Virus record (IMG/VR): IMGVR_UViG_3300033141_005269
Span: 13,416 to 77,415 of that record
Length of the DNA stretch: 64,000 bases
Reading direction: 5' to 3' (one strand)
Source of the DNA: a virus
The position numbers and the translations under genes are program-made. Within the stretch, counting starts at the first letter, position 1; every line of letters begins with the position of its first letter. The notes under the pieces are model-generated. The model worked only from the letters and a program-made list of their open reading frames with translations. It did no database searches and had not been told where the DNA came from. This document shows positions 19,272 through 55,542 of the stretch, in pieces.

Positions 19272-19746
19272 TCATTTTGCTAAGTCCTCTCCGGGTTCAC
19301 GGCTGCTCGAAGGCGCGGTATTTATTTGATTGCCGAGATAATTGCTGTCCCCTTCCAGCGCCCCGCATCTCCTTCCGAGCAATTGCCGACCCAGCGGACG
19401 CAATTTTTAAAGCCTTTTCAAGTTCAACCTCTATACCTTCCGCATAAACTCCAAGAATTTGAGCGTCCTTGAATTGCCTAAAGTGGGATAAAACCATCTC
19501 CAGATATCCCCGAAGTTTTTCAAGACGATTTTTACAATCCTCTAATTCATCAGCGTATTTAACATCATTTCTTGTTAAATCGGAAATATAATCTCTTAAT
19601 TCCTGGACTTCTTTCTGCGCATCCTCGAGTCGAACCCACTTCTGGTCCAACAGCGGATTATGCACTCCATCTACAGTTTTTGCCCATGCTTCTTTCCATA
19701 ACGCGTAAACTTCTTCGTAAGACTTCGCTTTGTTTTTCAAACTCAT
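19272..19746 (-). CDS. Coiled-coil hypothetical protein; predicted spliced form 19746-19383 + 19297-19272 (129 aa)
   Basis: Removing the BHB intron 19298-19382 gives ...SAGSAKPGEDLAK*, with TGA overlapping the next ATG (19275). Confidence 0.6.
19298..19382 (-). ncRNA. 85-nt BHB intron
   Basis: 5' CUGGGU-CGGC-AA^U-UGCUCGGA ... UUCGAGCA-GCCG-UG^A-ACCCGG; canonical hBHBh'. Confidence 0.8.
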
Positions 19747-35293: not shown

Positions 35294-35545
35294 TCACTTG
35301 GTGAGCTGAATTTCGATTGTTGAGACCCGAGTTACTTTTCCTTCGTTTTCGAGTTCCTCTGTGCCAATTTGAACGCTTTGAACCGAAGCTGAAAGCGTCC
35401 GAGCGGCTACTTGTGCAACATCAACGGCATGACTGATTGCACGTCCTCTAGCCTTAATGACTACTTCTGGTTCCTCGTTGAAAGCGTTTACGCATGCCAA
35501 AACGTAAACCCATGTCGGCTTTTTACCTACGAGAACTTCCTGCAT
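35294..35545 (-). CDS. albA: Alba DNA/RNA-binding protein
   Basis: VLVGKKP..VYV, VVIKARGRAISHAVDVA, IGTEE, VSTIEIQL: the canonical archaeal Alba signature. Confidence 0.95.
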   Translation of the reverse strand: MQEVLVGKKPTWVYVLACVNAFNEEPEVVIKARGRAISHAVDVAQVAARTLSASVQSVQIGTEELENEGKVTRVSTIEIQLTK

Positions 35546-38174
35546 GTCAAGTCCTCCAAAATTATCCAAGCGAATTAGCTATCATAAAAACTTCGAAGCG
35601 TTTCATGAATTCATCGAGAGAAATAATCCCCATTACGAATTCCATGACTAAATGCTTTTGCTTCTTGTTTCGAAGGTCAAGAGTATCACCAAGAATTTTC
35701 ATAGTTTTCACAAATTTATCTTCGATACGCAAGGTTATTCCGCCATAAGCATGTAATTGAATAATTTTGTATTCTGATTGAAAGAGAAGTCTATAAAATA
35801 ACATGCGTCTAATCGAATGATGCATCCCAAAATATATCCATTTTCCGTTGTCTTTAATTAGAACATGCGGCCCAGCGAATCCACGATACCATAGCGTAAT
35901 CATCGCCATGAAGTTTAATCCTCCAAAAGCTCATTTTGGCTTGCCCAATAAATTTTCAATTTGAATCGGAGAATTCGAAATAACTGCTTTGCCATTATGC
36001 CCAATAAGCCGTTGCGCGTCATCCGGAAATTTAAGTCTAATAATTATCGGTCGTCCAGTTTGTATCGAGAATCGAATTGCTTCGTAAATATCTGTCCAAG
36101 CGCGAACAGGAGGAAGAATGCACCCTTGTCGATAATATCGCATAAGCTTTTTGAATGAAGTGACATGATAAACAATCATGGAAATCCTCCAAAAATGAAT
36201 TAAGAGGAAGTTGCATTTACTTCTTCGATAGATAAGACATATCCTCGAATTTCAAAGCCAAGAATTGTAAACCATGGCTGATTAATGAAAGTTATTTTAT
36301 ATGTTTTGCCTACTTCCAAATTCACGAAGCCAATAAGCCGATAGCTCACATCTTGGTCTCCATAGACTCGAGCCCAAACATTTGTGTGTTGACCGAAGCG
36401 TGTGCTATGCTCGATAGCTTGAACCGTCACTGTAACTTCATATGTTTGCCCAGCAAAAGTTAGAGCGTATAAATATGAACCACCATAAACTACACCAACA
36501 AGAATTCCAAGAACAATGAGTACGGCTATCGCCGAGGCTAATAAGTCATATTTGTCCATTTTAATCCTCCAAATATAAAAAATAGGGGAGTTTATTTGTA
36601 GAAGCTGATTGGATATGGAGGTCTTGTCTGGTCAAACAAAACCGCAAAGACTGAACCCCAAGCTGAAGCAAACCACTGATTAGCTACTCGAAACAGCTTG
36701 ATATCCTCGCACGCCTCGAAAGAGATTATTGGGTCTCGTCTATCGAAGAACACTCGAGTGTTTTTGGGGATTTTCAACTGAATAGTTGGAGTTCGAATTG
36801 TGAAGCCCTTGAATAGAACACCACTGAGCAAATCGTAAGCCTCCAAAACTATTAATCAACTAATCGCTTCGAAATTTTATCATCATCTAAAGGTTCGAGA
36901 CAATTTGGACAAATGAATTTATCAAAATCATAGCTCATTATGAAATGCTCATCGTCGCAACCCTTATGATAGAATCCGTCACGGCGAAAATGAAATCTGC
37001 CAAGAACCTTACAAGTTGAATGTCCTTGATAAATAATATCATCGAGAATAGAGCCACAATGAGGACAGATTATCCTCTTATCTCCCTTTATTGCATGAGC
37101 CAACCGCTTTGCTTCAATTGAATTATTCATATTAATCCTCCAAAATTAGAATTAGTAAACTCGAAAGCCACCACAATTAAGGCAGAAGTTAGCCCATTTT
37201 TCCACAAGCTTTCTGTCGAGGTGATAACCGGGCGGCAAAAACTCTTCTATCTCCTTTTTCTTCTTTTCGAATTTGCAAGTTAGGGCATTGAAAATTGCCT
37301 CGACATCATCTTTTCCGTGGAGAAATTCAAGAACCCTTCGACCTATCTTTTCGGCGTCTTCTTGCTCGATTAAAAACCCATCGTTATAAAGACCAACTTG
37401 AAACTTGTAATATTTTCGAGTTTCTTTATTTCCATCTTCATCCTCGATTTCGATTTCCATTTCCTCTTTTAGAAAATCATGGCAAAGAATGTAAACTAAA
37501 CCCCATATTGGTGTCCAATACCACCAGTTTAGCGAGAAAAATTCTCCGTCTTTGTTCTTCGGGTTAATGCCAACAATGTCCACTCCCAAGATAAATCCTC
37601 CAAATAAAAATGGAAAATTACTTAATTCTGCGATAAGGTATTTGCTCGATTTCGAAGCTGATGAAGACTTTATGTCTTCGAACCTCGAAAGAAACATCCT
37701 TTGCCTCGAGTACTTTAAGTATCATTAGAACCTCATCAAGAGTTATATTTTCTGTATCGTTGGTAATCATTTCTGCGACCTCCGATTATCAAAATGAGAG
37801 CCTTGAACCAGAACGAATTGATTATTTTTGCGAATTGTTTGGAAAGCTCTTGGGAACTCAAAAGTTTTTCCTCCTCGAAGAGATTTTAGCTTCGATAAGA
37901 ATCAGTGCTGAAGAAAGCACGATGACTATCGAGAAGCTCCAGAAAATCATTTGGGTTGAAATCAACTGATAGCCTCCAAAAAGAGCTTATGCGAGATAAT
38001 AGACTAAAGGTTTTCCTTTCGAATCAGTAGCTAAAATCCATTTGCCCTTCCATTTGCCGTTTGCCTCGAATTGTTTTTCGAGTAAGAAGTAGAGGGTATG
38101 ATAACCGTTACTCCCAAGAATCATTCTTTTTCCGAGCTTGAACCTTCGCAAATTTGAACCTCCAATTATTTTCA

Positions 38175-38622
38175 CGGGACAAGGCGGGAAAGGGCTTTCC
38201 CTTACCGAGCCAGCTTTTCAGCTGACCGCTCCACGCAGGGAGGAACTCGCTTCGAGTCTGCCCTACAAGGCTTTTCACTGTTCGCCTTATGCGATGCCCT
38301 TCGAGCTTCATATCTCGAGGAAAGCTTGGAGCTGGGTGCCTCACAACCCGAGCACTTTAGCTCGAGCTGCTTCGTCTTACTGGAGGTGTTCGACAACTCT
38401 CTCCTTTCAGTTATGGAGAAGAGCCGGCACTCGCCCGAGCGGTCACCCGCTACTCTCGCCTTGTTGCCCGCCCTCGAGGCCAGGTCGGCTCTATGCCTCT
38501 GATTCGCTTGGCATAAGGTGGAGGACGCCTTCCAACTCGCAGTCGGAGCTGGAGTTGCCGCCTGCACTCCCGAGGGTTCGGCGATGAGCTTCTCCTTTCA
38601 CTGCAGTCCCGCCTCATTCCCA
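38175..38622 (-). ncRNA. GC-rich multi-hairpin structured RNA domain (~450 nt) of unknown class
   Basis: Terminal pairing GGGAAUGAGGCGGGA / UCCCGCCUUGUCCC. Many hairpins, e.g. UCCAGCUC/GAGUUGGA, GCAGCUCGAGC/GCUCGGGUUGU, GGUCAGCU-GAAA-AGCUGGCU. G-U pairs favour the minus strand. Confidence 0.65.
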
Positions 38623-38715
38623 CTCAAAAATTCGAGAAGGACGATTTACGAGCTGAACCTTACACCCTCGCAAACTCCTTCTCATAGTTAATCTTTTTGG
38701 CTCAGAGCACGGGAT
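38601..38715 (-). ncRNA. 115-nt rod-shaped BHB intron
   Basis: CUUUC-GCAG-AA^A-UCCCG ... CGGGA-CUGC-AG^U-GAAAG; internal stems GAGAAGGA/UCCUUCUC and GUUUGCGAG/CUCGUAAAU. Confidence 0.7.
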
Positions 38716-38731
38716 TTCTGCGAAAGCTCTT

Positions 38732-39290
38732 TTCTGCCCGAAGCTCCTTCTTGCGAGGGAGGATTTGACTCCTCGAGAACCTCGCCTCAACAGAAAAAGA
38801 AAGGGGAATTTGAGATTTATTTAGATTTCTTCTTGGGCTTTTCCTTCTTGACAGAACGCCGAGCGACAATTGCCTTGATTTCGCTTGGTACTCGTTTGAT
38901 TGGTTTGATTGGCGTTCCTGCTTTTTCTTCCAGCATCTCCTTTGCTTCCTCGTCCACGAAGCGAATCGCTTTGCTTAATGGACGAGCCTTCTCGTTATAA
39001 GGAGCTCTTGCTTCTTTGAGTTGAGCTTGTAGCTCTTCGAGCTCCTTATGGGCTCTTTGGAGATGCGGGATTACTGAAGTGTCGCCTTTCTGAATCAGCT
39101 GAACAAAAAACTTGTTTAGCTGACCAGACACCGCACTTTTTGCCTGAACAAGAGCTTTGGTTGCCTTGTTCTTCTCGCTGTTTATCTCTTTACGCCCGAA
39201 GCTTAAGCCCAATCGATAGTAGTAGAGCCTTTCCGCTGGAGTTAAATCAGTGTCGGACATTTTTAATCCCTTTCGATAGGGAGCTTCGGT
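38732..39290 (-). other. BHB/BHL-bounded 559-nt segment containing a complete ORF (putative circular mRNA)
   Basis: AAAGCUCUU-CUGU-AA^A-CCGAAGCUCC ... GGAGCUUCGG-GCAG-AA^A-AGAGCUUU. Confidence 0.75.
38817..39260 (-). CDS. Basic coiled-coil protein with Lys-rich tail
   Basis: 147 aa; heptads KELEELQAQLKE; C-terminus KKEKPKKKSK; GGGA SD. Confidence 0.75.
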   Translation of the reverse strand: MSDTDLTPAERLYYYRLGLSFGRKEINSEKNKATKALVQAKSAVSGQLNKFFVQLIQKGDTSVIPHLQRAHKELEELQAQLKEARAPYNEKARPLSKAIRFVDEEAKEMLEEKAGTPIKPIKRVPSEIKAIVARRSVKKEKPKKKSK

Positions 39291-39320
39291 TTACAGAAGA
39301 GCTTTAACTCCCCGTCCAGC

Positions 39321-39604
39321 CTCGTGGCATATAAAAAATATGGGCTTTTAAAGAATCGGTTGGAGCCTAACGGCTTTCCAATATTCTGAATGCTCAAAAG
39401 CTTCTTTGTAAAGTTCGTAGTCTTCTCTGCGAATTTTCCTGATAAACGCTTGTTTTTCGATAATTTGAAAATCTTCTGTTTTTTCGAACAAGACTTTATG
39501 AGAATTCCTGAAATGCTCGATTAGCTGTTGCTCAATCCGTTCAAGTGTCAGCCCTATAAATCTCTGGTTACACTTTCGACATCTCGCCCAATATGGCATT
39601 TTAG
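39321..39604 (-). other. BHL-like-bounded 284-nt segment containing a complete ORF
   Basis: CCGUCCAG-CGUG-AG^C ... CACG-AG^G-CUGGACGG: 8-bp outer stem and perfect 4-bp helix; inner stem weak. Confidence 0.55.
39348..39599 (-). CDS. Small C2H2-like zinc-binding protein
   Basis: CRKC...EHFRNSH. Confidence 0.65.
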   Translation of the reverse strand: MPYWARCRKCNQRFIGLTLERIEQQLIEHFRNSHKVLFEKTEDFQIIEKQAFIRKIRREDYELYKEAFEHSEYWKAVRLQPIL

Positions 39605-39892
39605 CTCACGCTGGACGGTCTGGAGAAGCTCGTTGTTAGCGTTCTCACTTGTCCGTTCCCCGCCCTCCCCTCGCCCGCTACGCTTTATCCTTAAGGCGAG
39701 ATTCGTTACGCCTTAAGATTCAGCGCTCGTTTCTACACCGTCCGCCCGCATTACGACGCACGATAAACCATAACGTGCGTCCGTCGGTACGGTGTATCCC
39801 GTCGTGCGTCGTGTCGCCACGAGCGCACTTAACGGTTTGTTGGTTTTTGCACATACGTGCAATAGGCACGGTGTGCTTATCCAAACCGTTTG
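39605..39892 (-). ncRNA. Structured non-coding leader
   Basis: Nested inverted repeats AACGGUUUG/CAAACCGUU, GCGCUCGU/ACGAGCGC, UACACCGU/ACGGUGUA, CUUAAGGCG/CGCCUUAAG; TATA-like elements at about 39905-39930. Confidence 0.55.
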
Positions 39893-40234
39893 GGTGTCGG
39901 AAATATATAAAAAAGGAATATTATTTAAGCCTTTATAACATGCTATAATATATGAAACAAATATTTTATATCGAATATTATATAATTTGGTTTATCCTTG
40001 ACAAACAACCAAAAAGGAATTATGGGCAAGGCACGAATAACAACAAACGCTTTAAACCCTTTAACATCCCTTTATTTTTTGTTTTTGTCTTTTTGTGAAA
40101 ACCTTTTTCGAGAATAAGAGCAAATTATGCCTTTTGTATGTTGTTTGTGCCTCAACCTTATTCGATAACTTAACAATAGTAACTTATCCCGTATAGAACA
40201 CTTCAGCTATGTTATACTATACTATTAGAGCTTA

Positions 40235-40410
40235 TTACTCGAAATAATCAAGAAATTTCATAACTCGAATAAGTTTCAAGAATATCGAGATTAAGCTATA
40301 AGCTATTAGCTATAAGCTATAGAGGGCTGGAGGGCTGTTAAACATTCGAGATTAATCCATGCAGAGAAAACAAATTATTCGAGATTAATCAAATATTCGA
40401 GAAAAATCAC
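40235..40410. repeat. Iteron-like repeats in the AT-rich divergence region (candidate origin)
   Basis: 4 x 7-nt (A/T)AGCTAT at 40293-40320; TCGAGATTAA at about 40285, 40346 and 40379, plus ATTCGAGAAAAATC at 40395. Confidence 0.5.
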
Positions 40411-54069: not shown

Positions 54070-55149
54070 GTGAAGAATTTGATCGAGCTCTCATATGAAT
54101 CAGACTTCTCGTTTACGGAAGAAGTTAAACCTCTAATCATTCGAGGAGTCGCACTGAATGCTGGCATTATTCCGTCGAAGAAGTTAATCATTCCAGAAGA
54201 GGAACTCGATAACCTCGCGAAGACGCTTAAAGAAGGCGAAGATGGACACGGAGCGTATCTACTGCTCGATCATGATAAGCGGGTTGAAAATGTAATTGGG
54301 CGAGTTGTTGACGCTTGGGTCGAAGATGGAAAGAGGGTGGAGTTCGAGGCAACGTGTTATGATGATGTTTATGCAGACAAAATTCGAAATCACCTGATTT
54401 CATTTGTGAGTACTGGTTTAACGCTGGAACATGAAATTTGCTCCATATGTGGTCGGGAATACCTGACCGGCGGATGCAATCATAGACTTGGGCACGAGTA
54501 TGACGGGAAAACAGCATATATTATTGGGAAAGGTTTGCGTGGTAGAGAAATTTCATTGGTACTTTACCCGGCTGATCCCGGAGCTTCACTTGCAGTTGCA
54601 CTGAGTAGAGAGCTCGAAAAGATTGAGAAAAAGAAGGAAGAGCAGATTTTGAGCGAAGAGCTTAATAAGAACCAAAATAAAGAAATTAATAAAAAGAAAA
54701 ATGAGGGAGAGATAACAATGGTCGAGGTTGTTGAATTAACCGAAGAAGAAGTGTCACAGCATCCCTTCGTAGAGAACCTTTTGGCTCAATACGCTGAGCT
54801 CCAAGAAAAGGTGAAAACTCTTGAGGAAGAGAAAAAGGCACTTAACGAGAAAATCGAGGAATTATCCGCAAAGATCAAGGCTTATGAGGAAGCTGAGGCT
54901 AAGCGCAGGAAGGAACTTCATGATAACCTGGTTGCTGAACTGCTTGAGAAGAGGAAAGAAGCCGGCTTACCGGAGAAGAAAGCTGAGGAATATGAGAACT
55001 TCTCAGACGAGGCGATAAAGGAAATGATCGAAATGGTCGAAGCGACTAAGAAATCTAGCGGAGCGAAAGGTCATGTTAACTTTTCAAGCGAAGGCAAAAC
55101 TAAAGATGAACTGAAAGAAGAATTGAGAAAGAAACTTGGATGGGCGTGA
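54070..55149 (+). CDS. Prohead protease fused to scaffold (internal start likely at 54718)
   Basis: LLDHD...IGRV, VSTG, CSICG...CNH, EISLVLYPAD; acidic coiled-coil C-half with GGAG SD before MVEVVE. Confidence 0.85.
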   Translation: MKNLIELSYESDFSFTEEVKPLIIRGVALNAGIIPSKKLIIPEEELDNLAKTLKEGEDGHGAYLLLDHDKRVENVIGRVVDAWVEDGKRVEFEATCYDDVYADKIRNHLISFVSTGLTLEHEICSICGREYLTGGCNHRLGHEYDGKTAYIIGKGLRGREISLVLYPADPGASLAVALSRELEKIEKKKEEQILSEELNKNQNKEINKKKNEGEITMVEVVELTEEEVSQHPFVENLLAQYAELQEKVKTLEEEKKALNEKIEELSAKIKAYEEAEAKRRKELHDNLVAELLEKRKEAGLPEKKAEEYENFSDEAIKEMIEMVEATKKSSGAKGHVNFSSEGKTKDELKEELRKKLGWA

Positions 55150-55155
55150 TAAGAA

Positions 55156-55542
55156 ATGACAAGAATAGAAGTTGGAGAAGGAAATGTATGGTCATTTGAA
55201 GCTGGCGAAGATATAACCAGCGGTGTCGCCGTGACGATGTCTGGCGACGGAACCGTTGCGAAATGCCACTACGGAGAAAGGGCGCTTGGAGTTAGCTTGG
55301 TGCCGGCAAGCGAAGGCGACCAGGTCGCAGTTGCGCTTGAAGGCGTCGTGGACGTGCTCGTTACTGGAACTAATGCGGACGCTGGAGTACCGGTCGTTGT
55401 ATCAAACGGTGCCGCTTTTGGTGGGGTAATTTACCCAACTGTCAGCGGAACGGATGAAATACTCGAGCAAGATTTAAGACTTGGAATACCCTTAGAAGAT
55501 ATAACTGCTGGATCAACTGGAAAGATAAGATTGACATTGTAG
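55156..55542 (+). CDS. Capsid cement/decoration protein (DUF2190-like)
   Basis: AGEDITSG, ALGV, GDQVAV..EGVV, LGIPLED; lies just upstream of the capsid gene. Confidence 0.75.
   Translation: MTRIEVGEGNVWSFEAGEDITSGVAVTMSGDGTVAKCHYGERALGVSLVPASEGDQVAVALEGVVDVLVTGTNADAGVPVVVSNGAAFGGVIYPTVSGTDEILEQDLRLGIPLEDITAGSTGKIRLTL

What the first reader, a model, noticed from the sequence alone, without database searches (positions are those of the whole stretch)
38175..38622. Unclassified ~450-nt highly structured RNA
Seen: a GC-rich island in an AT-rich genome with more than 10 hairpins, end-to-end pairing, and recurring UGAAA and UAAG loop/junction motifs. The overlapping ORFs lack the genome's SD and have atypical composition. 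Its 5' arm GAGGCGGGA can pair either with the 3' end or within BHB site 3, so it may act as a switch. I see no RNase P, SRP, tRNA or group I/II signatures. Inference: a new large viral ncRNA, possibly the 3' part of a spliced RNA of roughly 750-800 nt.
Basis: partly seen in the sequence, partly recalled or inferred. Interest (0 to 1): 0.75.

Follow-up and report, generated by a model that had tools for sequence, protein, structure and literature searches.

The report
GC-rich folded RNA beside splice-motif cassette
A 450-600-base, unusually GC-rich, protein-free stretch in a tailed virus of heat-loving archaea most likely makes a heat-stable folded RNA of no known family; its start is built into a row of tRNA-type splice signals that bracket two whole viral genes, but no relative or RNA data could be reached to prove it.

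Summary
The island is real: 38136-38735 reaches 63% GC in a 40% GC, 77-kb archaeal tailed-virus genome. It is non-coding by codon usage and has no protein homologue. It matches no Rfam family. Taken alone it folds better than shuffles (z -3.6 on the + strand, -4.1 on the - strand).

The "end-to-end pairing" depends on where the ends are set. [quoted passage not shown]

On the minus strand the island's first 25 nt supply the 3' halves of that BHB and of a 10-bp helix to a second GC-rich leader 1 kb upstream. Between them, two far stronger BHB motifs bracket two complete small genes; none of 150 shuffles reached their scores. A 22-nt BHB insert elsewhere in the virus restores a protein frame when removed.

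Best reading (about 0.4): the island is the 3' part of an early RNA processed by the host splicing endonuclease, and ends up in a ligated GC-rich RNA of about 730 nt. Its function is unknown.

No homologue, covariation or expression data could be obtained. The scan has noted similar orphan GC-rich RNAs in other archaeal elements, none alike in sequence.

The parts
38172..38600 (-). Core of the GC-rich, hairpin-dense non-coding island (59% GC). It is the proposed last 'exon', starting at the 3' cut of BHB site 3.
   Evidence: Composition; folds; negative codon-usage score in all frames; no Rfam match.
38601..38715 (-). 115-nt segment enclosed by BHB site 3 (48% GC).
38709..38726 (-). BHB site 3, 5' half: CUUUC|GCAG|AAA|UCCCGU.
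   Evidence: Inner-helix probability is about 1.0 and central-helix probability 0.67-0.88. Its score of 14 is not significant on its own.
38595..38612 (-). BHB site 3, 3' half: GCGGGA|CUGC|AGU|GAAAG. It overlaps the 5' arm of stem P1.
38586..38595 (-). GGAGAAGCUC, the 3' strand of a perfect 10-bp helix with the leader's GAGCUUCUCC (39622-39631).
   Evidence: Pair probability about 1.0 in the 1.74-kb fold. Each 10-mer occurs once in the genome.
38607..38622 (-).
   Evidence: It pairs with 38175-38189 only when the RNA is cut at 38640 or below. Probability is about 0 in longer context.
38175..38189 (-). C-rich 3' arm (UCCCGCCUUGUCCCG). It has three possible G-box partners: 38607-38615, 38454-38462 and 39657-39666.
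38396..38424 (-). Hairpin GCUCUUCUCC-AUAACUGAAA-GGAGAGAGU. It looks like an uninterrupted copy of the hairpin that joining leader and island would create (GAGCUUCUCC-AGUGAAA-GGAGAAGCUC).
   Evidence: The resemblance is my reading of the sequence.
38723..38747 (-). BHB site 2, 3' half: GGAGCUUCGG|GCAG|AA|AAGAGCUUU.
   Evidence: score 22, while 150 shuffles reach at most 17. Pair probabilities are about 1.0.
39280..39305 (-). BHB site 2, 5' half: AAAGCUCUU|CUGU|AAA|CCGAAGCUCC.
   Evidence: (I1).
38817..39260 (-). 147-aa basic, all-helical protein gene, wholly enclosed by BHB site 2.
   Evidence: A 57%-identical homologue, P0002; AF2 helical model; positive codon score.
39299..39320 (-). BHB site 1, 3' half: GCUGGACGG|GGAG|UUA|AAGCUC.
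   Evidence: (I3).
39610..39631 (-). BHB site 1, 5' half: GAGCUU|CUCC|AGA|CCGUCCAGC. This is canonical hBHBh' with 19 Watson-Crick pairs.
   Evidence: Best all-Watson-Crick BHB in the whole genome. None of 150 shuffles reaches 19.
39348..39599 (-). 83-aa zinc-finger-like protein gene, wholly enclosed by BHB site 1.
39620..39885 (-). Second GC-rich structured island (55% GC). It is the leader of the leftward early transcript and the proposed first 'exon'.
   Evidence: z -4.94; no Rfam match; composition.
39901..39914 (-). TATA-like box UUUUUUAUAUAUUU in the AT-rich divergent control region, upstream of the leader.
   Evidence: Read from the sequence. Promoter function is inferred.
37987..38175 (-). 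First small ORF after the island. Its likely start is the UUG at 38151, behind GGAGGU.

Best explanation
The stretch is non-coding. On the minus strand, which is the strand of every neighbouring gene, it specifies the GC-rich, heat-stable 3' part of a long folded RNA that heads the virus's leftward early transcript. It is probably not a free-standing 450-nt RNA closed by its own ends.

Its first 25 nt form the 3' halves of a bulge-helix-bulge motif (site 3) and of a 10-bp helix to a GC-rich leader 1 kb upstream. Two stronger BHB motifs lie between leader and island. Each encloses one complete small gene.

Proposed mechanism (inferred): the host tRNA-splicing endonuclease cuts in the bulges and RNA ligase joins the flanks. 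The 313-, 559- and 115-nt enclosed pieces are released, probably as circles that carry the two genes. Leader and island (from 38600) become one ligated RNA of about 730 nt and 56% GC. This parallels archaeal pre-rRNA processing.

What the ligated RNA does is unknown. My guess is a scaffold that holds the splice motifs in register at high temperature and couples early-gene expression to host RNA processing. It may also act as a stable RNA in its own right.

Shown: the composition, the lack of coding signal, the motif geometry and its statistics. Inferred: transcription, cleavage, ligation and function.
For: GC island and absence of coding signal. No Rfam family.

Folding beyond shuffles: island z -4.06, leader z -4.94, and genome background median -0.07.

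BHB scan of the 1.75-kb region: the three top hits are the tandem sites, scoring 22, 19 and 14. In 150 dinucleotide shuffles the maximum is 17, and hits of 17 or more average 0.01 against 2 observed. Site 1 is the best all-Watson-Crick BHB in the 77-kb genome.

Partition function of the 1.74-kb transcript: the 10-bp leader-island helix, the site-1 inner helix, the site-2 stems and the site-3 inner helix all have probability about 1.0, while the island's own closing stem is about 0.

Handedness: the three sites match that of a 22-nt BHB insert in a minus-strand gene, and removing that insert restores one reading frame.

The supposed exons are GC-rich (55-59%). The enclosed pieces have 41-48% GC.

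Joining the site-1 5' cut to the site-3 3' cut would give a perfect 10-bp hairpin with a 7-nt loop. A look-alike uninterrupted hairpin sits at 38396-38424.

The endonuclease is known to cut BHBs in rRNA precursors, releasing circles, and in a 5' UTR (PMC7714728, PMC7038931).
Against: - No homologue of the island was found, so there is no covariation.
- Site 3, the only BHB that touches the island, is no better than chance on its own: 0.5 hits of that score are expected per shuffle.
- A 10-bp complement somewhere between two regions of this size is not rare by itself; my estimate is about 0.2 expected.
- In the equilibrium fold the site-1 outer and central helices have probability 0, because their 5' strand prefers the island partner. 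Cleavage at site 1 would therefore need co-transcriptional folding.
- Site 2 has a 2-nt bulge where the canonical motif has 3.
- The z of -6.8 for the joined 727 nt is about what two independent structured halves would give.
- Strand assignment rests on context, not on energy.
- The coding region of the 147-aa gene is also unusually structured (z -4.3), so strong folding is not specific to the islands.
Confidence: 0.4

Rival explanations
1. An unprocessed cis-acting structure. The island is a long, heat-stable intergenic or 5'-UTR fold within the polycistronic early mRNA. It would insulate, stabilise or gate translation or read-through into the small ORFs downstream. The BHB look-alikes would then be ordinary long-range helices that are never cut.
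For: The island sits between two co-oriented genes with no convincing promoter of its own. A U-run lies just after the 147-aa gene. The downstream ORF starts directly at the island's 3' end behind GGAGGU. The whole 39900-38175 stretch, including a coding region, is unusually structured.
Against: 450-600 nt at 59% GC is very large for a UTR element. Two of the bracketing motifs have exact BHB geometry and handedness far beyond chance. The virus shows at least one frame-restoring BHB insert, so its transcripts appear to meet the endonuclease.
Confidence: 0.25
2. A free-standing trans-acting RNA of about 450 nt, closed by the 16-bp stem 38607-38622 / 38175-38189. It could be the RNA partner of a neighbouring basic protein or a decoy against host defence.
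For: Folded alone, the stem forms, and the element has z -4.06 with GNRA loops. A basic helical protein, a zinc-finger protein and an Alba homologue are encoded nearby.
Against: The stem has probability about 0 when as little as 190 nt of upstream RNA is present. No canonical TATA box lies between 38708 and 38623 that could start an RNA there. No BHB bounds the element at its own ends. No homologues were found.
Confidence: 0.15
3. No RNA function. The stretch is a compositional island left by foreign DNA, a decayed gene or a miniature transposable element, or it is a DNA-level site.
For: The ends form an imperfect 15-nt inverted repeat. Local 300-nt z-scores are only moderate. The island is an orphan in every collection searched.
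Against: There is no target-site duplication. No second copy exists in the virus or in the 1,342 archaeal genomes searched. There is no protein similarity and no coding signal. Its 5' end is integrated into the cassette's helices. In AT-rich thermophile genomes, non-coding GC islands are usually structured RNAs (established knowledge, Klein et al. 2002).
Confidence: 0.08

Closest known systems
Archaeal pre-rRNA processing: BHB motifs in the 16S and 23S processing stems, circular pre-rRNAs and ligated flanks (PMC7038931, PMC7714728, PMC10351888)
   Same: Long-range helices bracket a unit of several hundred nucleotides or more. A BHB lies inside each bracket, several such units stand in tandem on one transcript, and the flanking segments are GC-rich. 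The expected products are excised circles plus ligated flanks.
   Different: The bracketed units here are two small protein genes and a 115-nt piece, not rRNAs. The element is viral. The flanks are large (266 and 429 nt) and elaborately folded. Nothing has been shown experimentally.
ORF-bearing BHB introns of archaeal rRNA and tRNA genes (LAGLIDADG homing-endonuclease introns; my own knowledge)
   Same: A structured RNA gene interrupted by endonuclease-spliced inserts that each carry a complete ORF.
   Different: The host RNA is of no known family. The enclosed ORFs are a zinc-finger-like protein and a helical basic protein, not homing endonucleases.
BHB introns in mRNAs: crenarchaeal cbf5 and the 46-nt intron in the 5' UTR of Haloferax HVO_1309 (PMC7714728)
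   Same: The splicing endonuclease acts on a messenger or untranslated region rather than on tRNA or rRNA.
   Different: Those are single short inserts. Here whole cistrons would be removed.
GOLLD, ROOL and OLE large ornate RNAs (PMC12286853)
   Same: Large (over 400 nt), many-stemmed non-coding RNAs, often carried by phages or prophages, whose function was long unknown.
   Different: No covariance-model match. Those are bacterial and conserved in many genomes with covariation. This one has no known relative.
GC-rich non-coding RNA islands of AT-rich hyperthermophiles (Klein, Misulovin and Eddy 2002; my own knowledge)
   Same: Detected by local GC excess in an AT-rich genome. The GC excess is taken to reflect selection for heat-stable helices.
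   Different: Those are cellular genes, and many were later assigned to families. This one is viral and unassigned.
RNase III processing of the phage T7 early polycistronic mRNA (my own knowledge)
   Same: A host RNA-processing endonuclease would cut structured signals between the early cistrons of a virus.
   Different: A different enzyme and motif. The T7 sites are local hairpins that do not bracket genes, and there is no ligation or circle.

Membership tests
Any Rfam 15 family (RNase P, SRP, tmRNA, group I/II introns, GOLLD, ROOL, OLE, HEARO and the rest) | A covariance-model score at or above the family's gathering threshold | tested here: not met
   No match at gathering score in the whole window. 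At E<=10 there is only noise, 9-20 bits against thresholds of 40-96.
tRNA / tmRNA | Cloverleaf detected by ARAGORN | tested here: not met
   no gene in 64 kb.
Substrates of the archaeal splicing endonuclease (BHB) | hBHBh' geometry: two 3-nt bulges on opposite strands, 4 bp apart, flanked by helices and of the right handedness | tested here: met
   Site 1 has 6+4+9 bp, all Watson-Crick. Site 3 has 5+4+6 bp. Site 2 has 9+4+10 bp but bulges of 3 and 2 nt. The handedness equals that of the frame-restoring 22-nt insert.
Substrates of the archaeal splicing endonuclease (BHB) | The motif is more than chance | tested here: inconclusive
   Sites 1 and 2: none of 150 shuffles reaches their scores. Site 3, the only one that involves the island: about 0.5 chance hits of that score per shuffle.
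Substrates of the archaeal splicing endonuclease (BHB) | Cleavage in the bulges and ligation of the ends in vivo or in vitro | not testable with these tools
   No RNA run was listed. The one DNA run laid does not cover the island.
Pre-rRNA-type processing cassette | The excised unit is a ribosomal RNA | tested here: not met
   The enclosed units are ORFs of 83 and 147 aa plus a 115-nt piece. There is no rRNA match.
Large ornate RNAs (GOLLD, ROOL, OLE kind) | Conservation with covarying base pairs across many genomes | tested here: not met
   No homologue turned up in any of the following:
- IMG/VR pattern scans.
- Related virus records G001-G005.
- The 70 loci fetched by then.
- 1,342 archaeal genomes.
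- GenBank phages.
Close relatives exist only on contigs that could not be fetched.
GC-rich ncRNA islands of AT-rich thermophiles | Local GC well above the genome, no coding signal, folding better than shuffles | tested here: met
Miniature inverted-repeat transposable element | Terminal inverted repeats with a target-site duplication, and several copies | tested here: not met
   An imperfect inverted repeat is present. The flanks TTTTCAC and CTCAAAA are not duplicated. No other copy exists.

The most novel reading that the evidence does not exclude
An archaeal virus carries a gene for a GC-rich RNA of about 730 nt that is interrupted by three tRNA-type (BHB) inserts. Two of the inserts are complete protein genes. 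The host splicing endonuclease and ligase would release these as circular, ribosome-readable mRNAs while stitching the structured RNA together. That would be a pre-rRNA-style processing pathway taken over for viral early gene expression.
Probability: 0.28. Interest if true: 0.85.

Novelty: new variant of a known kind. Interest (0 to 1): 0.6.

Why it matters
Known substrates of the archaeal splicing endonuclease are tRNAs, rRNA precursors, one mRNA (cbf5) and one 5' UTR. A virus that uses the same enzyme to cut whole genes out of a structured early RNA would do two things. It would extend this pathway to viral gene expression. It would also give a natural case of BHB-made circular mRNAs, which is of interest for RNA biology and for circular-RNA engineering.

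Even in the modest reading, the element is a clean, large, heat-stable RNA candidate of no known family in an uncultivated vent virus. It adds to a recurring pattern of orphan GC-rich RNAs in archaeal mobile elements seen elsewhere in this scan. The claim is directly testable with one transcriptome or one in-vitro cleavage assay.

Tried and rejected
Homologue hunt, all empty for the island:
- GenBank phages by blastn.
- IMG/VR and JGI scans with the 147-aa protein and its alignment.
- 24 distant IMG/VR loci reached through the 181-aa protein.
- Capsid-based relatives. IMG/VR records G001-G003 (53-58% capsid identity) have only coding GC islands and lack the early-operon genes. JGI contigs with 88% and 79% capsid identity are too short to reach the region. 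GTDB genomes gave nothing.
- nhmmer of 38100-39950 against the 70 loci fetched by then.
- Two purine/pyrimidine-coded pattern scans of IMG/VR.
- blastn of the island against 1,342 archaeal genomes of five phyla gave only chance matches of 20-36 nt.
- Earlier scan notes searched by place and by sequence.

The 19-kb Logan contig that encodes the 57% homologue of the 147-aa protein, and a 29.9-kb contig of a virus with 89% capsid identity, could therefore not be read.

Sequencing runs: no RNA holder was listed. One DNA run (labelled a hydrothermal vent metagenome) held a small share, and laying it gave four short contigs on 36104-37703 and none on the island.

Other dead ends:
- The host could not be named from the viral Alba: at most 59% identity, spread over many phyla.
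- The 147-aa protein has no PHROG or Pfam family and no fold match; it is an all-helical model.
- No internal paralogy between the two islands.
- No meaningful antisense match of the island to the rest of the genome.
- RNAduplex between the two islands was uninformative, because the method allows unlimited loops.
- A BHB at 38629/38078 was rejected: it has weak helices and gives no sensible reading-frame join.
- The TCGA and TTCGAG excess was rejected as a signal, because lower-order CG bias explains it.
- No covariance model was built: only one sequence is available, and the 400-column limit is below the island's length.

Full report
WHAT THE WINDOW IS

The window is 64 kb of a 77,415-bp virus record with 40% GC. 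It encodes an HK97-type capsid protein, a portal and a large terminase. It also encodes an Alba homologue and an archaeal Holliday-junction-resolvase-like nuclease. I therefore read it as a tailed virus of archaea. One DNA run labelled a hydrothermal vent metagenome holds near-identical fragments of neighbouring genes.

THE OBSERVATION

Only three GC-rich islands exist in the genome. The one at 55136-55485 is coding: it is a protein gene just upstream of the capsid gene, with a relative in another virus. The other two are non-coding and lie 800 bp apart.
- The finding: 38136-38735, peak 63% GC, with 38176-38622 at 59%.
- A second island at 39561-39910.

All ORFs and frames inside the finding score -0.38 to -0.77 bits per codon on the virus's own codon usage. 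Long genes score +0.20 (sd 0.03) and the small flanking ORFs +0.05 to +0.21. The longest ORF has no protein homologue and no Pfam family.

Rfam 15 gives nothing at gathering score for the window and only noise at E<=10. ARAGORN finds no tRNA.

Folded alone, 38175-38622 has z -3.60 on the plus strand and -4.06 on the minus strand, and 0 of 100 shuffles do as well. The minus-strand model has about 12 hairpins, including GAAA and GUGA tetraloops, and keeps -50 kcal/mol at 80 C.

The signal is more modest than it first looks.
- 300-nt sub-windows reach only z -1.4 to -2.5. The genome background has median -0.07, 5th percentile -2.06 and minimum -3.13 over 112 windows.
- Energy hardly tells the two strands apart.
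- UGAAA is enriched, with 4-5 seen against about 1.2 expected. UAAG is not.

THE CLOSING STEM DEPENDS ON WHERE THE ENDS ARE SET

The 16-bp end-to-end stem (38607-38622 / 38175-38189) appears when the RNA is cut at 38640 or below. I also computed the partition function for 38816-38150 and for the whole presumed transcript 39885-38150. In both, every pair of that stem has probability about 0 at 37 and 60-65 C, and about 0.1 at 75 C.

Its 5' arm, GCGGGA, instead pairs with UCCCGU at 38709-38714 with probability about 1.0. [quoted passage not shown]

CUUUC|GCAG|AAA|UCCCGU ... GCGGGA|CUGC|AGU|GAAAG (38726-38709 / 38612-38595).

In the energy model it is strongly one-sided.

THE SURROUNDINGS

All flanking genes are on the minus strand. 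On that strand the order is as follows.
1. An AT-rich divergent control region with a TATA-like box at 39901-39914.
2. The GC-rich leader, 39885-39620, with z -4.94.
3. An 83-aa zinc-finger-like ORF.
4. A 147-aa basic helical ORF. It is a real gene, with a 57%-identical homologue.
5. The island.
6. A run of small ORFs.

Each of the two ORFs is bracketed by long-range helices that have BHB geometry.
- Site 1: GAGCUU|CUCC|AGA|CCGUCCAGC ... GCUGGACGG|GGAG|UUA|AAGCUC (39631-39610 / 39320-39299). It has 19 Watson-Crick pairs and two 3-nt bulges.
- Site 2: AAAGCUCUU|CUGU|AAA|CCGAAGCUCC ... GGAGCUUCGG|GCAG|AA|AAGAGCUUU (39305-39280 / 38747-38723). It has 23 pairs and bulges of 3 and 2 nt.

Site 3 follows site 2 after two nucleotides.

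In a BHB scan of this 1.75-kb strand the three best hits are exactly these sites, scoring 22, 19 and 14. In 150 dinucleotide shuffles the best score was 17, and hits of 17 or more averaged 0.01 per shuffle against 2 observed. Hits of 14 or more averaged 0.52, so site 3 alone is not significant. Site 1 is also the best all-Watson-Crick BHB in the whole genome.

The handedness of all three sites fits the minus strand: on the 5' strand the bulge lies on the loop side of the central helix. It equals that of a 22-nt insert at 29973-29994 in a minus-strand gene. That insert has a GCCG/CGGC central helix and AGA and AUA bulges, and removing it restores a single open frame. This suggests the virus's transcripts are substrates of the host splicing endonuclease.

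HOW THE ISLAND IS TIED TO THE CASSETTE

Besides the 3' half of site 3, the island supplies GGAGAAGCUC (38595-38586). This is the perfect complement of the leader's GAGCUUCUCC (39631-39622), and each 10-mer occurs once in the genome. In the full-length fold this helix has probability about 1.0 and closes a junction from which the three bracketing stems emerge.

Suppose the cuts fall after the second bulge nucleotide, as in tRNA introns and in the 22-nt insert. The 5' cut of site 1 and the 3' cut of site 3 then leave ends that join into a 10-bp hairpin with a 7-nt loop, GAGCUUCUCC-AGUGAAA-GGAGAAGCUC. A very similar uninterrupted hairpin lies at 38424-38396.

The four pieces left after removing the three enclosed segments add up to 727 nt at 56% GC. 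The removed segments have 41-48% GC.

CAUTIONS

- The equilibrium fold gives the outer and central helices of site 1 probability 0, because their 5' strand prefers the island partner. Cleavage at site 1 would need co-transcriptional folding. That is plausible, since the nearer partner is made 700 nt earlier, but it is an inference.
- A 10-bp complement somewhere between two regions of this size is not rare. I estimate about 0.2 expected.
- The z of -6.8 for the joined RNA is roughly what two independent structured halves would give.
- The coding region of the 147-aa gene is also unusually structured, at z -4.3 on the minus strand and down to -5.3 on the plus strand. Strong folding is not specific to the islands.
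- There is no covariation, because no homologue could be obtained.

SEARCH FOR RELATIVES

Every route was tried. Protein-anchored scans of IMG/VR, JGI metagenomes and GTDB genomes were run. Whole-record searches and composition scans covered three related viruses. nhmmer was run on the 70 loci fetched by then. Two degenerate pattern scans of IMG/VR were run. blastn covered 1,342 archaeal genomes from five phyla. GenBank phages and the scan's own notes were checked.

Viruses with 53-58% capsid identity lack both the early genes and any non-coding GC island. Closer relatives exist, at 89% and 79% capsid identity and with a 57% homologue of the 147-aa protein.

The scan has noted comparable orphan GC-rich RNAs in other archaeal viruses and plasmid-like elements. 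One is said to sit 'in front of tRNA-shaped signals bracketing swappable genes'. None shares sequence with this one, and I could not examine them.

VERDICT

Its statistical strength and its 'closed' shape were overstated.

The most likely identity is the 3' GC-rich part of a structured early RNA that is wired into a tandem BHB cassette and is probably processed by the host splicing endonuclease (0.4). The rivals are:
- an uncut cis-acting structure (0.25);
- a free-standing RNA of about 450 nt (0.15);
- a functionless compositional island (0.08).

The closest known system is archaeal pre-rRNA processing, with BHBs in the processing stems, excised circles and ligated flanks (PMC7038931, PMC7714728). 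It differs in that the bracketed units are protein genes and the carrier is a virus.

It is not a member of any catalogued RNA family. I class it as a new variant of a known kind. The bold reading, gene-carrying BHB inserts in a viral RNA gene, remains open at about 0.28.

Noticed in passing
window 39561-39910 (minus strand): A second non-coding GC-rich island lies directly behind a TATA-like box. It folds with z -4.94 and has several perfect 9-11-bp stems. It matches no Rfam family. It is the leader of the leftward early transcript.
   Followed up: partly
window 38817-39264: The coding region of the 147-aa gene folds far better than shuffles on both strands: z -4.3 on the minus strand and down to -5.3 on the plus strand. 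It contains perfect inverted repeats such as 38997-39007 / 39039-39049. This is unexplained.
   Followed up: partly
window 40100-40410: An AT-rich divergent intergenic region holds at least four copies of a TTCGAGATTAA(TC) box, plus the tandem AGCTATAAGCTAT. It may be an operator array or a replication origin.
   Followed up: no
window 29973-29994 (minus strand): A 22-nt insert has a canonical BHB (GCCG/CGGC, bulges AGA and AUA). Removing it restores one continuous reading frame (..DPYPVPRTWSWLALELKEGF..).
   Followed up: yes
window 19298-19382 (minus strand): An 85-nt, 56% GC element is bounded by a good BHB (CUGGGU|CGGC|AAU|UGCUCGGA ... UUCGAGCA|GCCG|UGA|ACCCGG) at the 3' end of an ORF. Splicing would swap a 31-residue tail for an 8-residue tail.
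   Followed up: partly
whole genome G000: GGCC is depleted (observed/expected 0.41) and so is GATC (0.63), which suggests restriction avoidance. CG-containing words such as TCGCGA and TTCGAG are 5-7 times above base-composition expectation, but lower-order bias explains this.
   Followed up: yes
window 37152-37697 (minus strand): The 181-aa ORF belongs to a family of about 190 small proteins with a Trp-rich N-terminal part and a C-terminal CGGF motif. All relatives start at its residue 37, so the true start is probably internal. The function is unknown.
   Followed up: partly
window 35294-35545 (minus strand): The virus-encoded Alba homologue is at most 59% identical to any Alba in GTDB genomes. 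Its best hits are spread over Methanomethylicia, Thermoplasmata, Aenigmatarchaeota and Archaeoglobi, so it does not name a host.
   Followed up: yes
   Followed up: no
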